Source: Lytechinus pictus (Eukaryota). From it: a stretch of DNA of 64,000 nucleotides. Location: the NCBI RefSeq assembly GCF_037042905.1, contig NC_087245.1:9612001-9676000 (forward strand), read 5' to 3'. The translations under genes and the position numbers were made by a program. Below the pieces are notes generated by a model. That model did not search any database. It saw nothing but the letters and a program-made list of their open reading frames with translations, and had not been told where the DNA came from. Position 1 is the stretch's first letter. Every line of letters starts with the position of its first letter. Shown in pieces: positions 2,912 to 61,509 of this stretch.

Positions 2912-3051
2912 TACACTTTACGTTTTACGGTGGCACTGACACTAAGCAGGGAGTCAAGGATCAAGTCTATGCCTGGGGGAAAATTGTGAATTTCTTCCGG
3001 AAACATCTTGATGTCAAAGAAATGTATCGCAGTGATTGGATCTCATCCTGA
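2912..3051 (+). CDS. Acyl-CoA thioesterase / BAAT-family gene, last coding exon
   Basis: ttttcacag acceptor; phase-1 join gives LHFTFYGGTDTKQGVKDQVYAWGKIVNFFRKHLDVKEMYRSDWISS*, matching the ACOT C-terminal GG...Q..AW..I..FF.KHL pattern. Confidence 0.85.
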
Positions 3052-3332
3052 ACTATCTTTTCATTCCACTAGTGAGGCGGGAAATAGATAAACTGATCTT
3101 TGGAGTGATAACTGTCACTTGGATTAAATGCCAAGCAGTGCCTATTCCATGTTTATACACTGTACATGTATCTGTGTGTGGTAATATCATATTGGAGGAT
3201 TTTATTAGTACTGTGCATGTTGAAACAAGAATGTACTTAAAAAAAGACATGATACCAATTTATATATATATATATATAATGTGATGACAAGTTTACTTGT
3301 ACCAAACGCTCTTGAGGTGTGAGTATGAAACA

Positions 3333-3574
3333 TATTGTGATGAGGCCAACTCAAAAGATGACGCAGGACACCATTTTAGCTTTAGCTTTCGTCTTTAATA
3401 AGACTTCGTCAAAAGCGTCTGTAATTACAGACTATTTTGGTCAGGATGCCTACCGTATTATCCTGACCATAATAGTCTGTAATTACAGACGCTTCTGACG
3501 AAGTCTTACAAAAGACGAAAGCTAAAGCTAAAATGGTGTCCTGCATCATCTTTTGAGTTGGCCTCATCACAATA
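3333..3574. mobile_element. Foldback MITE (near-perfect palindrome) downstream of the ACOT stop
   Basis: Arms of ~115 bp, tattgtgatgaggccaactcaaaagatg / catcttttgagttggcctcatcacaata; short loop near 3450; abuts a (TA)n tract. Confidence 0.8.
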
Positions 3575-4188
3575 TATATATATATATATATATGCATAAA
3601 AACTACCTAAAGGAGACAAGGAAAATTATTGTTATATGGGTAAGTAGATGCTCTAAAATGATATTAAGCTATTTCTGACAGGTGAATTGTAGATATTGTC
3701 ACTTTATTCGGTGATTTGAAAAGTCAATCATTATTTGGGTGATGTAGGATATATTTTATTATCATCTATATACAGTGTTTTAGGGATACATTAAAAATGT
3801 GTATTTTGGTCTGCATCAATTGCCTGTGCACTTTCAGAGCGTATTCTTAAAAAGGACCGAAATCCGACAAATATCCTGTACAAAATTTGACTTTGAATAT
3901 GAGACTTTATTCAACAGTCTAATGCGCACGTGTGAGTGCGTGAAATATACAATACGTAGAACAATGAAAGCAATGTGATGCGCAGCATAGAGCACAATTA
4001 CGCTCGAAGACGTCATAATGAACTACATGCAAGTCGCATGTCAACCACCAAATTTGATCCTATGAAGTGATGATGCCATAATGTGATAAGTGATATGACT
4101 TGTTCAATCAAATTTCTCCCTCTTTTTTTTTTAGGGGGGGGGATGGAGTGGGATAGATGATAATAATTATATTGGATGGCTTTATTTC

Positions 4189-12209: not shown

Positions 12210-12424
12210 ATACACGTACCGGTACGCCGGTACGGTACGCGGTACGCGGACGGACGCCACAGATGAATGGGATTGAACCGGCCGCGCCGCGGGCATAGAG
12301 TAGTAGGAAGTACAACTACAAGTGTATCGACGAAATGGAGAGGGAAAGAGAATCACCATAACGTTTATTTTGTTTGGTTTTGATAGTGTGTTTAGGTAGT
12401 CGACTCATTCCTCACAAAATTAAG
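12210..12424 (+). promoter_or_regulatory. Candidate promoter and non-coding first exon, probably of MAP3K13
   Basis: Local CpG-rich patch ending in a strong donor aag|gtaaga at 12424/12425; no other + strand coding gene recognised before 35677. Confidence 0.4.
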
Positions 12425-52341: not shown

Positions 52342-52628
52342 GTGAGCATCTGTTACTCCATTATAGAGTGGGAATGGGATGACGGACGGGAATCGTCATC
52401 GCTTGCCTTCACTGAAGGCTTCAGCGTTGGCGGTCTGTCTCGCGGCGCCCGCTCATCGGCCTCATTACGATGGGCGCCGCAAGTCAGCTAGCTATATGAT
52501 TATGAGATATGCTCGTTGCTCTTATCTTACTACTTGTCTTTGGTCATGTTGGTGCTGCAGAGAGCTTAGGCCTTAGCTGAACTAAACTGAGACCTAGCTA
52601 AGTTAGTGAGTCTGAGCTGAGCCTGGCC

Positions 52629-53076
52629 TAGACAGCTGGCAGCCGTCTGTTTCGAGGAGTTTTTTAACATTTTTTTATTTTTTAAATTTCTCCTCATACA
52701 CAGACGGCTCGCTATCGTGCAGCCACCATTAGGGGACTTACAATGCAAAATCCCCCCGTCGGGGCTCTTCAATTTTTGTCTTTAATGAATCAAACTTTTG
52801 AAAATTAACGCGACCGAAATGCAAATTAATATTTCCTCTTGGCATCAATTGCCCAAAAACGGGGAAAATCAAGTTAAAAGGAACAAAAACAGTGACTTAC
52901 CTCGGCTGTCCCGCAACTTCACTGCCCTGTTTTATCCGAACCTAATACACATAAACATATGGCCATTGAGTCCCCTGTACAGATCGCGCTAGAACTTCGG
53001 TCTCTGTATTTGGTGAGTGAAGCCAACGGAGTTCAGCTGAACAACCAACATAACAGAGACCGAAGCTTTTGGTCTA
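52629..53076 (+). mobile_element. TAGAC...GTCTA element, unit 1 (448 bp; 9-bp TSD; possibly AcademH-type)
   Basis: AGCCTGGCC|TAGACAG ... TTGGTCTA|AGCCTGGCC. Confidence 0.85.
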
Positions 53077-53085
53077 AGCCTGGCC

Positions 53086-53492
53086 TAGACAGTCGACTGG
53101 CAGCCGTCTGTTTCGAGGAGTTTTTTAACATTTTTTTGTTTTTTTAATTTCTCCTCATATAGTACCCGGTACCGGTACACAGTCACAGACGGCTCGCTAT
53201 CGTGCAGCCACCATTAGGGGACTTACAATGCAAAATCCCCCCGTCGGGGCTCTTCAATTTTTGTCTTTAATGAATCAAACTTTTGAAATTAACGCAACCG
53301 AAATGCAGTGACTTACCTCGGCTGTCGCGCAACTTCACTGCCCTGTTTTATCCGAACTTAATACACATAAACATATGGCCATTGAGTCCCCTGTACAGAT
53401 CGCGCTAGAACTTCGGTCTCTGTATTTGGTGAGTGAAGCCAACGGAGTTCAGCTGAACAACCAACATAACAGAGACCGAAGCTTTTGGTCTA
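53086..53492 (+). mobile_element. TAGAC...GTCTA element, unit 2 (407 bp)
   Basis: Same family as unit 1 with private indels; AGCCTGGCC on both sides. Confidence 0.85.
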
Positions 53493-54401
53493 AGCCTGGC
53501 CTAGACAGCTGGCAGCCGTCTGTTTCGAGGAGTTTTTTTCCCGGGGGGGCCACTTCCATTGACGAGTGGATACCATGCGCGACCATGGGGTCTCGAAAAG
53601 CACCCTAAACACTAGACAGGAATAACCGTCGTTTCTGGGGATTTATTCAACAATTTCTGACATTTTACTTTAATCCCCATTAACCCTCATTCCCACCCTT
53701 TTGTCAATTCACAGTCCAAAGTTTGATGTAATTTTACACATCGAATTTACAATCTAAGGATGTATAACCAACAAACTTTTAAAACTGGATATTTTGTTAA
53801 CAAAATACTTTAAACGATATAGATGAAAAGGCATGAAAAATGATACTTTACCGATGTTTAATTGGGTTGAACACGATAAAAATGGTCAATATGGCAGCCA
53901 AACTATGATATATTTACAAACGAACGGAGAGGGCGTCAACAATCACGAATGTGATATCGATATTGCTTTCGATATTATACGATCTGCTCCTTATTTGAAT
54001 TCATGAAAAGGATACGTACACTCTACCTCGGTAATCATATAGCGCTTGCTGGTTTTTAAAGATAAAATTATCATCACTATTATTTACTATTATTATATAA
54101 TTATCATTATCGCTAAAATCATTGTGGTTTTTAAATATTATCGTTGTAAGTATTAATATTTGTAGTAGTAATATTTCATTATCATCGTTATTTTGATTAC
54201 TATTATTTCATTATTATCATCATCATCATCATTGTCATTATTTTCATTATATATATTATCACTATGGTTAAGAGATAAAAGAATAATATTTTTCAGATAA
54301 ATGTTATAGTAAACTGGTCGGGTTGATAAAATTTCTTGTTTGAAATTGAATTCCCAATTGGTCATGACCAGTTCCAGTCATTCTCTGATGATGTTGAGTA
54401 C

Positions 54402-55288
54402 CAGTGGCGTACCGTGGGTCACGGCATTGGGGGGGGGGGGGGGCACCAGCAAAAATTTTGAGTCATTTACTGGGCTGGCGAAGCGCGCTCAATTGCCAGG
54501 TACTGACGTAATAGAAGCATTTTAAGGACTGTTTCATTAAACAGATATGTATCTCACTGATTAAATAATGCGAGCGCGAAGCGCGAGCTGAAATTTTTGA
54601 AATTCAGACCTGAAGAGGGGCATTCTTAGGCTTGTTTGTAAAAATTCACTAAGGCCATACGTATTTCACTTACTAAATTATGCGAGCACGAAGCGCGAGC
54701 TGAAAATTTCTGATAGAGTTTTCAGACCAGTAAAGGGAAAATTTTAAGGACTGTTTTCAGGAATTCATGAAGAGCAGACATATCTCACCAGTCCATTGAT
54801 GCGAACGTAAGCACTAACTGGGAATATTTTATATTCAGACTTTAAAAAAGGGGCAGTTTCTTTTAAGTAGTCATGAGTGAGAAGCATGTCACTACATAAA
54901 ACAATAACTCGAAGTGCAAGGAAATACATGTATATGGTGTATATTGACTTGAAAACGGAATTTTTTAGTACAACATATATTTCATCAAACAGAAATTACG
55001 AGCACCAGGAATGATGAACACAATGTCATAGGCCCTTAGCAAAATATGTTTCATAATTAGAGTTATGAAAAAAATATTTATGTAATATAATATATTATAA
55101 TATAATATATATATATATATATATATATAACTTAATATAATAGAATATGCACTAGTTTCTTCTTCCTCTACTACGCCTCTCCTTTTTTTCTCCTTCTTTT
55201 TCTACTTTTCCCCCTTCTTTTTTTTTTTGGCCAGCCGATGGGGGGGGGGGGCACGTGCCCCCCATGCCCCCCCGTAGTTACGCCACTG
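54402..55288. mobile_element. hAT-like MITE nested in element A
   Basis: TTGAGTAC|CAGTGGCGTA ... TACGCCACTG|TTGAGCAC (8-bp TSD, 1 mismatch). Confidence 0.85.
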
Positions 55289-56616
55289 TTGAGCACGTGT
55301 TTTACCTCACTTTACACTTTCTTTCCCTTCGTTTTTTTCAATCCGCGGCAGCTTTGTCGTGTTATTGACTTTTTTCTTGTTCCTTTTCTTCATATTCTGA
55401 TTTTCAAATTCAACCTTTGTCTCTATATACCTTCATTTCGTATCTCTTTTTGTCGATTTCTCTCATTGTCCACCATTCTTGTCCATGCCACTGAGTCTCC
55501 TGCTAAAGACATGTTAAGGCCTCTACTTTCTCGCATGTTCTAATTCTTTCTTTCTTTATTGTTGTCATTTTCCTTTGCTTTTTCACCTTTCCCATTCCTC
55601 CCACCCCGGCCTCTTTCCTCGTTTTCTTTTCTTCATTTTACCTTTTTCTCTTTTCGCCCTTTTCTCGGTGAAATCCGCCAGGGCCGGGGCAGCTCCCCCC
55701 CCCCCCCCCCCCCCCGGCGCCTGTTACGCCAGGAAGACCAAATGAACAGCCGATAAGACCAATAGGGACTACCAGTAAGACCAATTGAGTTCACTCAGTT
55801 GGATACCAACCACTAAGCCAAAACATCAGTAACAGACTCCAGTATAATTAAGACCAGTTTAAAATCCCAGTTACTATAGGCCTATTCAATACCAATGACT
55901 GGAGCAGTATTATTTGTAACTAGAACAGTATTACCAGACCGATAAACCAATACTCCAATTTCCAGAGTTACTGGTCCAACTGGTCAAGTTGATTTTTTTT
56001 TCTTGTGGTTAATTTGATTTTCTATTTTTATCATTTGACAGATTATTGTCTTATCTCTTCATTTTGGGCTCGGTAAAATGTAGTTTAATGTGTCTATGGA
56101 CAATCAAGTCTCGAAATGTGTGATTTAAAGAGAAACTTACCCGCCGTTTTTCTGGCTGTGTTTGTGTCGTCACATCTTTTTTTTGAAGGGGTGTCTGTGC
56201 TTGTGGGCTTGTCAGTCGTCTTCGTTTCTTTCGAAGAAATGGCGAAGCATAGCTGGTCACCTTCACCTTCCTCCCCAAGTAAACATTGATTCTACTAATT
56301 TTCTTTAATTTGGATTTATTTTCAATTACATTTGAATTACTTTCAGATAATTTCAAAATTATTTTGCAACATCTGTCGCAAATGATTTTTTTTTATTTTT
56401 GATCGGGTGTCACTTTAATTCCTAATGATTCGACAGCGTCAGCAGTGGTGTAATCACGGTGATCCATTTTTGCATTCAAAGGTCTTCTTTTATTAGGATG
56501 ATTAGTCAAATTACGGTCACAATTACAACACCAGTAGTCAGACATAATTACTAAAATGAATTAATGAATCAAATAAAATTACCACCAGCAATCAGCACAC
56601 CTACATGGCAATATAC

Positions 56617-58420
56617 TTTTTTTTTTAAAGATGTTTTATTGTTTTTCTCTCAAATCAAATTTCATACAATGCAGTTAACAAAGTAACAATTGTAAATAAT
56701 AATTCAAATAAATTTCTTAAACTAGTATACATTATGCACATCATGAAATAATATTCTAAGACTGCATCGTACCACTACCAGATGAGTTTAACAAACAAAT
56801 ATCAGAGAAAAAACTTATAAAAGTATATGCGTTGCACCTGCCCCCTCCTTGCCCCCCCCCCCTTCCCTCCACAAACCCCCACACTTCACACCCTCAAACA
56901 TTTTTCGTACACCCTTGCATATGATGCCGCGTTCCGTCTGAAATAAGAAAACACCATAATGAACAAACATAATCTCGTGAGCTCTGTCGCCTCTATACTC
57001 TTGTAAGGAAATGTTCCCATTTCCTTATATGGTTTGATAATTTACCCCTTGTTACTGCTAAAATTTTCTCTTCACGTTCATTTTCTAATATCTTCTCTCT
57101 AATTTCGTTGGGACTTGGTGGTCTTTTTAGTCCTGCTGTAAACAAAGATCAGATATTTTATTAAAAGAATAATGTGATTAATTATTTGTTCCTTCCCTAT
57201 ATTAGCATGCTTAACACCAATGTGTATATCCACCCACCTGGCATTTTTTATTTCATACATATTGAATAAGTTACCGCAATCTATCCATAAGTCTCTCGTC
57301 TTTTCACATGAGAAAAACAGATGCTCGTAAGTTTCTTCAGTATTCCCACAAAATGAACATTCACTATCTGAGAAAATTTTGAATAAATGTAAATATTTCT
57401 TCGTGTATATTAACTCATAAAGCATTTTAAATTGAAACTCTCTAAGCCTACTGCTTAGAGTACATTTTCTGGGTCTTGAAAATATAGCACATATATCTTT
57501 TTCGAAGAAATTATATGTCTTATATTATCAAACGCATACGATTTTTCCAATTTAATACTTAAAAGTGCCTTGTATATTTTATTAGATGTCACGTTTGGTA
57601 AACTGTTAATCTTACCATTAAATATAAATTCTAGATTTAGACCAGTGTCTTCACAATTGTCTTTTTTCTTCAATAGGTGTTTCCATGTTGCTGGAATATT
57701 TTCAAAAACTTTATAAACTTTATCTATTTCATTTCCATCTAAACCCATTTTCAGAAAGTCTCTTTGCTTCCACCATATAAATAATTTTTTTTATTTTACT
57801 TAGAATCTATTTGTAATTAACATTTTCCTGAATTTCTACATCTAATGATAAAGTTATTCCTAATATTTTGATAGTTTCAACTAATTTACCAAATGGAACT
57901 TTAATATCTTTTGTAGAAAGAGGACCCAACGCTAATATAAATGTTTTTTCTTTATTCATTTTTAAGCCTGAAATCTTAGCAAAATCTCCAAATATTTTTC
58001 CGATTCTATCAATAGATTGGGAGTCCCTCACAAAAAGTGTCATATCATCCGCATAGAGCGCTTGTTTGACTTCTACATTACCAAAGCTGATTCCGTGGAT
58101 GGATTTATCTTTACGAATGGTATTAGAAAGGACCTCGATACAAAGTATAAACAAATAAGGAGAGAGGGGATCCCCATGTCTCACACCTCTTTCAACACTA
58201 AAGTATCCTGTCGATATACCCCCATTAAATACGCAACTCAGGGCATTTTTGTATAATGTTTTGATCCAGCTGCAAAATGAGGACCCGAAGCCAAAAGAAC
58301 GTAAAACGTTTTGCAAAAAGATGTGCGAGACCGAATCAAACGCTTTTTCAAAATCTATTGCCATTAAGAAACCAGGTGCATTATTTTGTTGTGTGTAGTA
58401 AATCATATCGTCAATCAATC
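56617..58420 (-). mobile_element. 5'-truncated, decayed L1/Tx1-clade LINE (RT and C-terminal CCHC finger)
   Basis: IDFEKAFDSV, RGVRHGDPLSPYLF, LYADD; CSFCGNTEETYEHLFFSC; AATAAA and poly(A) at 56617-56640; break near 57790. Confidence 0.9.
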
Positions 58421-58627
58421 TTTTTTTTTTTTTTTTTTTTTTTTTATACAAGTGCACACCTCGTTACCAATAATGCATATAGCATTTACATTTATTTGAA
58501 AGCAGGATAAAAGAGCATTGAAGATTAAATGCTTTGCTGACGGGCATAGGTGCCGCGGCCGGGGATCGTACCCCGGACTTTTTCATGTATAGCCTGGCGC
58601 CTTAGACCACTCGGCCACGGCACATCC
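58421..58627 (-). mobile_element. tRNA-derived SINE
   Basis: A box TGGCCGAGTGG, B box-like GGTACGATCCC, unrelated tail, 25-nt poly(A). Confidence 0.85.
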
Positions 58628-59072
58628 TAAATCTAATTGATCTAATACGATACGATACACTACACGAAGATAAACGATACTAGTTATAATCGCGATAAAT
58701 CGAGACATGAAAAAGTTAATAACGATAATGACGTCATTCAAGATGGCAACTTCCTAGAAAAACCGTCAGGTCAGGTGAAAATGTCTTAGATGACAGATTT
58801 CTCAATCATCCAGAGGATTTTTTTCAATAACTCCGGCCCAAGGTATGCAATTACTTAAGTTATTTATATTACCCTGATAATGGAAACCATGAAAATGTCA
58901 ATTTTGCCTAAAAAACAGTTTTAAATCGCGATCTATAAAACGCTAGTTCACTATACGTTGGCTGTAGGTAGGGGCCCCCCTCCTCTTCAGTCTATGTATG
59001 GTGAGTGGAGCCAACGCAGTTCAGCGGAACAACCAAAATACAGAGACTGAAGCTTTTGGTCTACCTAAACAC

Positions 59073-59519
59073 TAGACCAAAAGCTTCGGTCTCTGTTATG
59101 TTGGTTGTTCAGCTGAACTCCGTTGGCTTCACTCACCAAATACAGAGACCGAAGTTCTAGCGCGATCTGTACAGGGGACTCAATGGCCATATGTTTATGT
59201 ACTTAAGATCGGATAAAACGGGGAAGTGAATTTGCGCGACAGCCGAGGTAAGTCACTGTTTTTTTTCCTTTTAACTTGATTTTTCTCCGTTTTTTGGCAA
59301 TTAATGCCAAGAGGGAATATTAATTTGCATTTTGGTCGCGTTAATTTTCAAAATTTTTATTCATTAAAGACAAAAATTGAAGAGCCCCGACAGGGGGATT
59401 TTGCATTGCAAGTCCCCTAATGGTGGCTGCACGCTAGCGAGCCGTCTGTGTACGAGGAGAAATTAAAAAAAAAAAAAAGTAAAAAAAACTCCTCGAAACA
59501 GACGGCTGCCAGCTGTCTA
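59073..59519 (-). mobile_element. TAGAC...GTCTA element B (447 bp), inverted relative to units 1-3
   Basis: Reverse complement of unit 1 with few differences; CCTAAACAC on both sides. Confidence 0.9.
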
Positions 59520-61509
59520 CCTAAACACGTATTTTCCATATTCTGAAAATGCACCCCTTAACAAGTATTGGCGTGTGAAACCCAACCCTTAACAAGTATT
59601 GGAAACAAAACGATACTCTTGGCAAGTATTCCCTGAAATGAACCCCTAAACAAGTACAGCGATATTTTATTATGTCACGGGTCCGTCGGTCGTCGGTTTT
59701 ACCTTTACACACCATTTGGTTTAGTACGGCCCCACCTTCCACACCTCGCGCAAATCGGACTCTAAACACGTAGTGTTGGGGCAAAAAGGACATCCTTTAT
59801 AAAACATTTTAATTTTGCTTCATCATCCGCGCAAATTTGACCCTAAACACATAGCTTTCCTAGCGAAATAGATACCCTTTTTTCATTATTTTTGTGTTTT
59901 TGACACCCTTATCACGTTACGTACGTAACGTGCCCTATCTTGAAAAAGACATCCTTTTTACGTGTTTTTTTGGTCGCGCATGGTATCCACTTGTCAATGT
60001 AAGTGGCCCCCCCAGGTTTTTTTTAAACATTTTTTTTTCTCCTCGTTACCGTACACAGACGGCTCGCGATCGACATCGTGCTGCCGCCATAAAAAATTAA
60101 TAGGGGGTTAACAATACAAATTCCTCCCGACGGGGCTCATCAATTTTTGTCTTTATCTCATACAAATATATACAAAGAACTGGACCAAAATAAAGACTAT
60201 TATGTTTTGGCCTGAAATGCACCAAAACAGGAAAAAAATAACCTTAAAAATAAAAGGGGAAAAAAGTGACTTACTTCGCCTTTGGCTGTCGGCAACTCCC
60301 ACGACGTCCGTGGTTTATCCGAACTTCATACATAATCATAGAAGTTGAAATTACATCGCAAAACAAGTGGGATAGATCATTCAATGATAATTGTAATACA
60401 AAGAAACTATAAAAAACTTTTGGTAAAACGCCACAAAACCATTCATTTTGAAATAGTAAATTAAGTGAATCAATAAAGATTTTACCACATCAGGCCATCT
60501 AACACTGGAGTCGTATTTGTTATTTCAGACTCCTATTAACATTCAGATAAATTCTATCTCTACTTTATGCATAGAATTTATCAAATCATATTTTTAGGTA
60601 TCTAAAGATTCAAACAATTTATGTTAAACTATATTTTGATGTTTGGAATCATAAAAAAAACCTATAATTATCATTTTACAAAAAACCCATTATGGTTTAC
60701 TTTTGTCAACTATTACAATTTGATATCCCGAGGGTACCCATCTCAACCTTCATTATTTTGTGACTAAGGCTACGTCTCGTCTGCTCTTTTTACTGATAGT
60801 ATCGATATCGAGTGATTCTAGTTAGGAAGCTTGTTTGATTATCTATTACAGCAGGCAATAATGATAAAAACAACCATCTATGCGGTAGTATGCATTGTAA
60901 ATCTGGTTACTCAATACATTTTTTTTTTTTCAGATCAATCATGAAAGTTTGAAGCACAATTTTTCAGGTTTCCATATATAGACAATATCAAAGACTCCAT
61001 GCAATAAGCATGTAGCACCATATCATTTTCCACTACATTTTACAATATATTATCTCCTCTTCTACTATTTTATTTTGCCTTCAGTCATGAACTGGAAACA
61101 AACTGTATATTTCTAAATCATTATAAAATGTAAATGGATGACAGATATTTCTTCATGTCCAGATGTGACACAGAAATGCAGCATACATGTAGCATTGCAC
61201 TACAATTGTGTATGAAAATCGATCAAAGCTGCATGATTATGTGTGATTGTGATAGAAAATAAATGAATGAATAAATATTGCATCTGCAGGATCAAAACAA
61301 CAATGAAGTTGACAGTATTCGATTGCACCATATAGAATGGAAGTAAAAGAATTTTTGCTCTCTCCATCTTTGGCTCAGGTAAATTTTACCACTCCTCTCA
61401 TTTCTCTGATATAAATCAACATCACTGTTAATTTTCAATGACATGCAGTTCTGTATTACAGTGCATCTATGGGTAAAGAAACATTCGCAGTAACATGATG
61501 ACACTTTCT

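What the first reader, a model, noticed from the sequence alone, without database searches (positions are those of the whole stretch)
53604..59528. Two different transposons, in opposite orientations, share one triplicated 9-bp target: evidence for self-targeted array building
Seen: CCTAAACAC occurs at 53604, 59064 and 59520, each copy directly abutting a TAGAC or GTCTA terminus. Between the copies lie a 5.45-kb element (A) and a 447-bp element (B) that share only their ends and point opposite ways. Tandem duplication cannot produce this. Inference: the second element integrated exactly at the TSD of the first and duplicated the same 9 bp again. This resembles the repeat-spacer-repeat logic of CRISPR spacer acquisition, though no CRISPR machinery is implied. 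Established: AcademH transposons make 9-10-bp TSDs, so they are the best candidate family. I cannot say whether this stacking is already reported for them. Caveat: CCTAAACAC is also a native motif of the host MITE (59842).
Basis: partly seen in the sequence, partly recalled or inferred. Interest (0 to 1): 0.82.

Follow-up and report, generated by a model that had tools for sequence, protein, structure and literature searches.

The report
Stacked jumping genes sharing one target
Two small non-coding cut-and-paste transposons of one sea-urchin family landed one after the other on the same nine bases, a kind of double insertion already known from fly P elements and common for this family across the genome.

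Summary
CCTAAACAC stands at 53604, 59064 and 59520, and each copy abuts a TAGAC or GTCTA element tip.

A and B are not two different transposons. They are two non-coding subfamilies of one family with unlike ends and 9-bp target duplications.
- A is a copy of an 840-bp element, swollen by about 4.7 kb of nested retroelement debris.
- B is a young copy of a 447-bp element in the opposite orientation.

A second triple lies just upstream: AGCCTGGCC at 52620, 53077 and 53493.

Genome-wide, an element tip lies exactly 9 bases before 39 of 1448 and 67 of 1291 exact ends, against about 1.3 expected at random. Of 36 such junctions inspected, 26 join two family members, in direct and inverted orientation alike. 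Stacked neighbours are not each other's closest relatives.

The best explanation is double insertion driven by a strong palindromic target preference, RGCWN-G-N7-C-NWGCY. The duplication recreates the target core, and the TAGAC tip imitates the lost flank.

The same site in the host MITE is empty 1355 times and filled at about 15 other loci. Active targeting by the resident element's end is not excluded. The superfamily is unresolved and AcademH is untested.

This scan already found similar stacking in 8-bp P-like families of this genome.

The parts
52620..52628 (.). AGCCTGGCC, copy 1 of the upstream shared target (native left flank AGCTG)
52629..53076 (+). E1: 448-bp copy of the small subfamily (E450), running from end T2 (TAGACAGCTGGCAG...) to end T1 (...AAGCTTTTGGTCTA)
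   Evidence: 95.7% identical to the E450 consensus
53077..53085 (.). AGCCTGGCC, copy 2
53086..53492 (+). E2: 407-bp E450 copy with three indels relative to E1, in direct orientation
   Evidence: 97.6% identical to E1; E1 ranks 4th of 33 among its relatives
53493..53501 (.). AGCCTGGCC, copy 3
53502..53539 (+). E3, left 38 nt: a third T2 end, 100% complementary to B's T2 end. The body of E3 is split by the host MITE M
   Evidence: (I13)
53540..60016 (.). M: host MITE with 46-nt terminal inverted repeats (CCCGGGGGGGCCACTTCC...), inserted in the T-rich loop of E3. M's own sequence is 53540-53612 plus 59520-60016
   Evidence: I12, 93% complementary; other M copies have unrelated flanks
53604..53612 (.). 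CCTAAACAC, copy 1 (native left flank AGCAC)
53613..59063 (+). A: copy of the 840-bp subfamily (E840), from end TA (TAGACAGGAATAACCGTCG...) to end T1. Its first 382 bp and last 386 bp match the E840 consensus
   Evidence: 85.6% and 95.1% identity; consensus break at 407/453
53995..58677 (.). About 4.7 kb of foreign DNA nested inside A: a poly-G/C inverted-repeat element, AT-rich simple repeats, a non-LTR retrotransposon fragment and a tRNA-like SINE
   Evidence: (I18)
57099..58463 (-). Reverse-transcriptase remnants of the nested retrotransposon (RVT_1 E=4.2e-26; zf-RVT E=1.2e-9)
59064..59072 (.). CCTAAACAC, copy 2, between the two facing T1 ends
59073..59519 (-). B: 447-bp E450 copy in inverted orientation (T1 end on the left, T2 end on the right)
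   Evidence: I2, I3: 128 nt 100% complementary to E1 and E2; 98.4% identical to consensus
59520..59528 (.). CCTAAACAC, copy 3 (native right flank GTATT)
60017..60332 (+). Remainder of E3, only 60-73% similar to E1 and B. No recognisable T1 end and no fourth AGCCTGGCC
   Evidence: (D2, D9, D11, I6)

Best explanation
The locus is a nest of non-autonomous cut-and-paste DNA transposons. An old family member (E3) was hit by the MITE M. M was hit at CCTAAACAC by A, an 840-bp-type element that later filled with retroelement debris. Much later B, a 447-bp-type element of the same family, integrated on the right-hand copy of A's 9-bp duplication and duplicated it again. This is a double insertion. The family's transposase prefers a 19-bp palindromic target, roughly RGCWN | G-N7-C | NWGCY, and makes cuts staggered by 9 bp. 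After an insertion the central 9 bp exist twice, and each copy keeps one native flank. The element tip TAGAC supplies three of the four specified flank positions (W, G, Y). Each insertion therefore leaves two near-targets, so preferred sites are hit again in either orientation and by any subfamily. Shown here: the anatomy, the order A before B, the genome-wide excess of stacks, the independence of stacked neighbours, the target motif, and the hot spot in M. Inferred: that motif preference alone, without help from the resident element, causes re-use. The nature of the transposase is also inferred.
For: Family and duplication length: 41 of 48 paired copies in my loci have perfect 9-bp duplications. 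The genome-wide counts are as follows.
- GTCTA lies exactly 9 nt before 39 of 1448 exact T2 ends and before 67 of 1291 exact T1 ends.
- About 1.3-1.4 are expected at random, and the reversed-pattern controls gave 0.
- Among the 77 rows of the spacer scan from 3 to 16 nt, spacer 9 has 38 rows, while spacers 6, 7 and 11 have 0 (my hand count).

Of 36 junctions inspected, 26 have family ends on both sides. Of these 26, 16 show at least 3 copies of the 9-mer abutting element tips, 8 show 2, and 2 show 1. By orientation they are 11 direct and 15 inverted, and 8 mix the two subfamilies. Stacked E450 neighbours rank 2nd to 32nd of 33 among each other's relatives, so they come from different donors.

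The target motif comes from 46 native half-sites: G at -13 in 30, C at -12 in 29, A or T at -11 in 43, G at duplication position 1 in 28, and C at position 9 in 26. My hand counts on solo ends give WGY at -14..-12 in 57 of 100 rows and 39 of 100 rows.

Stack sites fit the motif better than solo sites.
- Position 9 is C in 23 of 39 junction 9-mers against 33 of 100 solo rows.
- Position 1 is G in 55 of 106 junction 9-mers against 38 of 100 solo rows.
- All of these are hand counts. McGurk and Barbash reported the same signature for P-element tandems (PMC5932611, passages read).

A hot spot exists without any resident element. AGCAC-CCTAAACAC-GTAT is empty 1355 times. The same 9-mer is filled at about 15 other loci in three configurations: TA-first, T1-first and T2-first.
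Against: A simple position-weight model under-predicts the effect.
- With the frequencies, which come mostly from stack sites and are therefore biased upwards, I estimate 4-20 coincident pairs for 3000-4000 insertions. About 60-80 genuine junctions are observed.
- The same model predicts about 0.02% occupancy of the M site, against about 1% observed.
- Part of that 1% may be M+element composites copied later. All 5 TA-first fillings have one orientation.

In the window, B used the duplicate that had lost the good native flank AGCAC and kept the poor flank GTATT. Under the model that copy is about 38 times less favoured.

No autonomous copy or transposase was found, so the cutting chemistry is assumed. 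The solo-site counts are hand tallies of the first 100 listed rows only, and 8 of those rows are one amplified site.
Confidence: 0.62

Rival explanations
1. Resident-end-directed targeting (true self-targeting). Transposase bound to the tip and subterminal hairpin of a resident copy tethers the incoming complex. One strand transfer then falls at the element-flank boundary and the other falls 9 bp away.
For: The motif model under-predicts both the number of stacks and the M hot spot by roughly 5-60 fold (my estimates). B landed on the duplicate next to A's end although that copy kept the weaker native flank. T1 ends sit at junctions more often (67 of 1291) than T2 ends (39 of 1448). Family copies also cluster locally, for example five T2 ends within 11 kb at C1:9795504-9805925. 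[quoted passage not shown] 1993; I did not read Tower et al.
Against: The same 9-mer in M copies that hold no resident element is hit repeatedly. Junction 9-mers fit the target consensus better than solo ones, which tethering alone does not predict (hand counts). 10 of 36 GTCTA-N9 junctions have no family member on the other side, so a GTCTA-like native flank is itself part of the preferred target. A recurrent case in an amplified host repeat shows the same thing.
Confidence: 0.22
2. The stacks arise by recombination, not by insertion: unequal exchange or slippage between the two 9-bp duplicates, or exchange between alleles that carry different insertions at one site.
For: Direct stacks such as E1|E2 (97.6% identical, each other's 4th closest of 33) and L014 (2nd closest) could be tandem duplications.
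Against: 15 of 26 inspected junctions are inverted and 8 mix subfamilies, which unequal exchange cannot produce. Most neighbours are not close relatives. A and B differ in subfamily, orientation and age.
Confidence: 0.08
3. Assembly artefact, or a fixed composite A+B element that moves as one unit.
For: The region is built of high-copy repeats. The public contigs laid on it are short repeat pieces, and none spans a junction.
Against: An artefact would not triplicate a unique 9-mer exactly, and would not do so at dozens of loci with different 9-mers. The junction GTCTA-CCTAAACAC-TAGAC occurs only in the window: 1 row, and no other coincidence between the places.
Confidence: 0.04

Closest known systems
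Double insertion of P and hobo elements in Drosophila (McGurk and Barbash 2018, PMC5932611; passages read)
   Same: Two elements occupy one target, with a spacer equal in length and sequence to the target duplication. Spacer motifs match the family's target consensus and do so better than solo sites. Both head-to-tail and head-to-head forms exist.
   Different: Here the duplication is 9 bp, not 8. The elements are non-coding MITE-like subfamilies of a sea urchin with only 5-7 bp of terminal inverted repeat. Inverted stacks are at least as common as direct ones (15 against 11 of 26). Stacks of three elements and of mixed subfamilies occur. The idea that the element tip imitates the target flank is mine and is not taken from that paper.
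singed-weak double P element (Roiha, Rubin and O'Hare 1988): recalled, and named in earlier scan note e1-7787570; paper not read
   Same: Two defective elements in inverted orientation at a single target site.
   Different: That case is a single locus found in a mutant. This is a genome-wide habit of a family. I did not check the details of that paper.
Tandem R1 elements in rDNA and tandem bacterial IS dimers that share a target duplication (as cited in PMC5932611)
   Same: The target duplicate is preserved inside the junction as evidence of repeated insertion at one site.
   Different: R1 is a site-specific retrotransposon with a single target. The family here uses many different 9-mers.
AcademH DNA transposons (Kojima 2020; known to me only through a passage in PMC10045372)
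   Same: AcademH is stated to make 9- or 10-bp duplications.
   Different: Nothing else could be compared. No transposase or helicase gene is linked to this family here, and the paper and its end sequences are not held.

Membership tests
TE double insertion (tandem or inverted dimers sharing one target duplication) | The spacer between the two elements equals the flanking duplication in length and sequence | tested here: met
   CCTAAACAC three times and AGCCTGGCC three times in the window. 16 of 26 inspected two-member junctions show at least 3 abutting copies.
TE double insertion (tandem or inverted dimers sharing one target duplication) | The partners are independent insertions, not copies of each other | tested here: met
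   Neighbour ranks are 2-32 of 33. 8 of 26 junctions mix subfamilies. A and B differ in age.
TE double insertion (tandem or inverted dimers sharing one target duplication) | Junction motifs follow the family's target preference, more strictly than solo sites | tested here: met
   Hand counts: position 9 is C in 23 of 39 junctions against 33 of 100 solo rows; position 1 is G in 55 of 106 against 38 of 100. The samples are partial.
MITE / non-autonomous DNA transposon | Small, non-coding, high copy number, defined ends with a target duplication | tested here: met
   447 bp and 840 bp. The longest open frame in the 840-bp consensus is 74 aa. 1448 and 1291 exact ends. 41 of 48 copies have perfect 9-bp duplications.
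AcademH | 9- or 10-bp target duplication | tested here: met
   9 bp. The feature is stated in PMC10045372.
AcademH | Autonomous copies encode an Academ-type transposase plus a helicase | not testable with these tools
   No autonomous copy with these ends was found. End-to-end distances of the pairs on contig C1 that I matched by hand (positions) are about 0.15-1.8 kb.
Mutator-like elements (MULE) | 9-bp duplication and a MULE transposase bounded by the family's ends | tested here: inconclusive
   The 9-bp duplication is met. There are 17 PF10551 matches in the genome. The one locus I fetched (894-aa open frame) has no TAGAC...GTCTA pair with matching 9-mers. The other 16 were not examined.
P superfamily | 7-8-bp duplication (recalled) and a P/THAP9-type transposase | tested here: not met
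   The duplication is 9 bp. The transposase was not tested. Only the GC-rich palindromic target with GTCT/GGCC-like starts resembles the P target GTCTAGAG quoted in PMC5932611.
CRISPR-like repeat-spacer acquisition | A constant repeat duplicated at each acquisition, with new spacers added at a leader end by Cas1-Cas2 | tested here: not met
   The duplicated unit is the target 9-mer, which differs between arrays. The inserts are transposons. It is an analogy of layout only.

The most novel reading that the evidence does not exclude
Resident copies actively recruit further copies. Transposase bound to an element's tip and subterminal hairpin guides incoming elements of any subfamily onto the adjoining 9-bp duplicate. 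The family would then build mixed, two-orientation arrays on itself, a self-homing behaviour that seeds palindromes, composites and perhaps satellites. The shortfall of the motif model, and B's choice of the duplicate with the weaker native flank, leave room for this.
Probability: 0.2. Interest if true: 0.6.

Novelty: new member of a known kind. Interest (0 to 1): 0.36.

Why it matters
The finding shows that double insertion is not a peculiarity of fly P and hobo elements. A 9-bp-duplication MITE family of a sea urchin does it at a rate of a few percent of its ends, in both orientations and across subfamilies. Such stacks are raw material for long palindromes, composite elements and tandem arrays. 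The proposed rule is that the duplication recreates the target core and the element tip imitates the target flank. That rule is a simple, testable reason why some families pile up and others do not. It does not open a new category of system.

Tried and rejected
Assembly check: public runs were found, and four were laid on 58500-60000. Only short contigs of the repeat families were laid, and no listed piece spans a junction, so this says nothing about the assembly.

Autonomous partner:
- ORFs in A give only reverse-transcriptase remnants of a nested retroelement.
- The 840-bp consensus has no frame above 74 aa.
- A MULE Pfam search gave 17 matches. I fetched one, and it has no family ends.

Literature:
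- The AcademH paper could not be opened by DOI or by PMC id.
- The Galileo paper (PMC3573991, passages) does not describe shared-target stacks.
- Two word searches returned no paper on stacking in sea-urchin MITEs or in 9-bp families. That is two searches of one library, not proof of absence.

Earlier-notes look-ups by sequence and by words found nothing on this family.

I considered that M might be an internal part of a larger family member. Other M copies have unrelated flanks, so it is not.

I considered that the C17 locus might be a second A+B composite. It holds a long A copy without B.

I tried to order the insertions in other stacks by divergence, to test flank choice. The differences were too small to use.

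I considered that the 12 identical TCGATCAAC junctions were a mobile stack. The two that I fetched are one small element in an amplified host repeat whose native flank reads GTCTA.
Full report
**Observation**

The three CCTAAACAC copies are at 53604, 59064 and 59520. Two further copies lie at 59842 (native to the host element) and at 12388 on the minus strand. That makes five matches against 0.54 expected. Each of the three abuts a TAGAC or GTCTA tip. Element A is 53613-59063 (5451 bp) and element B is 59073-59519 (447 bp).

AGCCTGGCC stands at 52620, 53077 and 53493, three matches against 0.06 expected. It separates two small elements in direct orientation (E1 52629-53076, E2 53086-53492) from a third element end at 53502.

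**What the elements are**

All these elements belong to one family with unlike ends.
- End T2 begins TAGACAGCTGGCAGCCGTCTG.
- End T1 begins TAGACCAAAAGCTTCGGTCTC.
- Only the first 5-7 bases are inverted repeats. Each end carries a subterminal hairpin.

B, E1 and E2 are copies of a subfamily of about 447 bp, which I call E450. B is inverted relative to E1 and E2, and 128 nt of its T1 side are 100% complementary to both.

A starts with a third end type, TA (TAGACAGGAATAACCGTCG), and finishes with a T1 end. Seven other copies with these ends, from my fetched loci, give an 840-bp consensus and are 95.7-99.4% identical to it.
- A matches consensus positions 1-407 at 85.6% identity and positions 453-840 at 95.1% identity.
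- The 4.7 kb between these two parts is foreign.
- It includes reverse-transcriptase remnants on the minus strand (RVT_1, E=4.2e-26; zf-RVT).
- Neither subfamily codes for protein. The longest frame in the 840-bp consensus is 74 aa.

So A and B are two non-autonomous subfamilies of one family, not two different transposons.

**The host and the order of events**

The 9-mer lies in a MITE, M (53540-60016), which has 46-nt terminal inverted repeats that are 93% complementary. M in turn sits in the T-rich loop of E3. Other M copies have unrelated flanks, so M is an independent element.

A second long A copy lies on contig C17 (L035, 417-6146).
- It has the same consensus break as A.
- It is in another M copy at the same 9-mer, with different outside flanks.
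- It has no B next to it.

B is 98.4% identical to the E450 consensus. The most economical order is therefore A first, and B later on A's right-hand duplicate. The junction GTCTA-CCTAAACAC-TAGAC occurs nowhere else in the genome, so A+B is not a fixed composite.

**Genome-wide frequency**

The window lies in an 811.7-Mb assembly that can be searched but not downloaded.

| Measure | Count |
|---|---|
| Exact T2 words (21 nt) | 1448 |
| Exact T1 words (21 nt) | 1291 |
| GTCTA exactly 9 nt before T2 | 39 |
| GTCTA exactly 9 nt before T1 | 67 |
| GTCTA exactly 9 nt before TA | 38 |

- Uniform chance gives about 1.3-1.4 matches each for the T2 and T1 counts (not computed for TA, whose exact word was not counted), and all reversed-pattern controls gave 0.
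- 12 of the 38 TA rows carry one 9-mer, TCGATCAAC. The two I fetched are a small element in an amplified host repeat whose native flank reads GTCTA, not a stack.
- A scan of spacers from 3 to 16 nt before T2 gave 77 rows. By my hand count, spacer 9 has 38 rows, spacer 3 has 15, spacer 4 has 7, spacer 14 has 5 and spacer 5 has 4. Spacers 8 and 13 have 2 each, spacers 10, 12, 15 and 16 have 1 each, and spacers 6, 7 and 11 have none.

I fetched the T2-anchored junctions and inspected 36, including the three in the window.
- 26 have recognisable family ends on both sides; 10 do not.
- Of the 26, 16 show at least three copies of the 9-mer abutting element tips. Another 8 show two, because the far end lies off the locus or is displaced by filler. 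The remaining 2 show one.
- By orientation, 11 are direct, 14 are T2-type facing T2-type, and 1 is T1 facing T1. The search could not find T1|T1 junctions except in the window. One search shows six palindromic T1|T1 pairs.
- 8 junctions mix the two subfamilies.
- Stacks of three elements with four copies of the 9-mer exist (L006, L009, L023, L024).

Stacked E450 neighbours are not each other's closest relatives. Their ranks are 2 to 32 of 33, and their identities range from 84% to 97.6%. These are independent insertions, not local duplications.

**Why the same nine bases**

The family has a clear target motif. In 46 native half-sites at 31 occupied sites:
- position -13 is G in 30;
- position -12 is C in 29;
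- position -11 is A or T in 43;
- the first duplicated base is G in 28;
- the last duplicated base is C in 26.

This gives roughly RGCWN | G-N7-C | NWGCY. My hand counts on the first 100 listed solo ends agree: WGY at -14..-12 in 57 of 100 T2 flanks and 39 of 100 T1 flanks.

An insertion duplicates the central nine bases and leaves one native flank on each copy. The element tip TAGAC then matches W, G and Y of the missing flank. The target is thus largely rebuilt twice.

Three observations favour target preference as the driver.
1. The M site AGCAC-CCTAAACAC-GTAT is empty 1355 times. It is filled at about 15 other loci in three configurations: TA-first 4 (not counting the window's own A), T1-first 6 (not counting B), and T2-first 2, plus unpaired right-hand junctions. 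The site is therefore hot without any resident family member.
2. Junction 9-mers fit the consensus better than solo duplications. The last base is C in 23 of 39 junctions against 33 of 100 solo rows, and the first base is G in 55 of 106 against 38 of 100. These are hand counts. This is the signature reported for P-element tandems (PMC5932611, passages read).
3. From the frequencies I expect about 8 of 1448 solo T2 ends to have a native flank reading GTCTA. That fits the 10 of 36 one-sided junctions and the TCGATCAAC case.

**What does not fit**

A simple position-weight model falls short.
- With the stack-biased frequencies, I estimate only about 4-20 exact coincidences for 3000-4000 insertions. 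Roughly 60-80 genuine junctions are observed.
- The model predicts about 0.02% occupancy of the M site, against about 1% observed.
- Some M fillings may be copied composites, because all TA-first fillings share one orientation.
- In the window, B took the duplicate that had lost the good flank AGCAC.

So either the real preference is sharper than a mononucleotide model captures, or resident ends add attraction. I keep the second possibility as a rival at about 0.2.

Recombination cannot explain inverted or mixed stacks. It could still explain some direct ones, such as E1|E2. Misassembly is very unlikely given the exact triplication of different 9-mers at dozens of loci. The read test itself was uninformative.

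**Comparison with what is known**

The closest known phenomenon is double insertion of P and hobo elements. There the spacer has the length of the target duplication, follows the target consensus, and fits it more strictly in tandems than in solo sites. Head-to-head forms are reported from local-jump screens (PMC5932611). Earlier notes of this scan describe the same kind of stacking for 8-bp P-like families elsewhere in this genome (e1-7810261, e1-7787570). I did not re-test those notes.

The superfamily of the present family is open.
- The 9-bp duplication fits AcademH (PMC10045372 passage), and, from my own recollection, Mutator-like and Merlin elements as well.
- It does not fit P elements.
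- No autonomous copy was found. The one MULE locus I examined is unrelated.

**Verdict**

The mechanism is a known one, so the finding is a new, well-populated example of a known kind and not a new kind of system.

Noticed in passing
L006:1002-1057 and L009:7337-7951: A second family, with tips TAACCC...GGGTTA (56 bp and 615 bp), sits in the same stacks and is flanked by the same 9-mers (GGTCGAACG, GGCCTAGGC). It probably uses the same or a related transposase.
   Followed up: no
L015:5009-5032; L002:650-672; L019:3675-3697: Footprint-like remnants appear next to stacks. In L015 a 6-bp TAGACA lies between two copies of GGTATCGAT. In L002 a 7-bp filler, and in L019 a 9-bp filler, separates the outer duplicate from the element tip. 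These may be scars of excised stack members.
   Followed up: no
L037:1423-2116 and L038:1441-1592: A mini E840 derivative of about 134 bp, inserted at TCGATCAAC in another repeat, has been copied with its host to at least 12 loci. In L037 the inserted element is interrupted just inside its T1 end by about 540 bp bounded by poly-G and poly-C runs, which look like the ends of an M-like MITE.
   Followed up: partly
genome rows: One site, AGCTC-ATTACGTAT-ATATG, recurs in 8 of the first 100 T2 flank rows. The element was evidently carried along when a larger repeat amplified.
   Followed up: no
L023:5468-6307: An unrelated insertion of about 830 bp splits one of the shared 9-mer spacers (GCTC | ... 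| GCTCCATGC) of a three-element stack.
   Followed up: no
L012:4040-5531: Two stacks lie about 90 bp apart. Their 9-mers (GGAGTCCTC and GCGAGGACT) overlap by 7 bases as reverse complements, which suggests a small inverted duplication of the target region.
   Followed up: no
window 54405-54444 and 55692-55731: Inverted repeats with long poly-G and poly-C runs lie inside A. They look like another nested MITE similar to the host M (I18).
   Followed up: no
genome C1:9795504-9806354 (about 120-130 kb beyond the window): Five T2 ends and three T1 ends cluster within 11 kb. This hints at local hopping or a regional hot zone.
   Followed up: no
window 53502-53539 versus 60017-60332: The left 38 nt of E3 are identical to young copies, while the rest of E3 is only 60-73% similar and has no recognisable T1 end. 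It may be a different subfamily with a conserved tip, or a patched element.
   Followed up: partly
genome rows: GTCTA also occurs in excess 3 and 4 nt before T2 ends (15 and 7 rows against about 1.4 expected). This agrees with a GTCT-like start of the preferred duplication. One 5-nt case (C2:14075454) is an insertion that overlaps 4 bases of a resident tip.
   Followed up: partly
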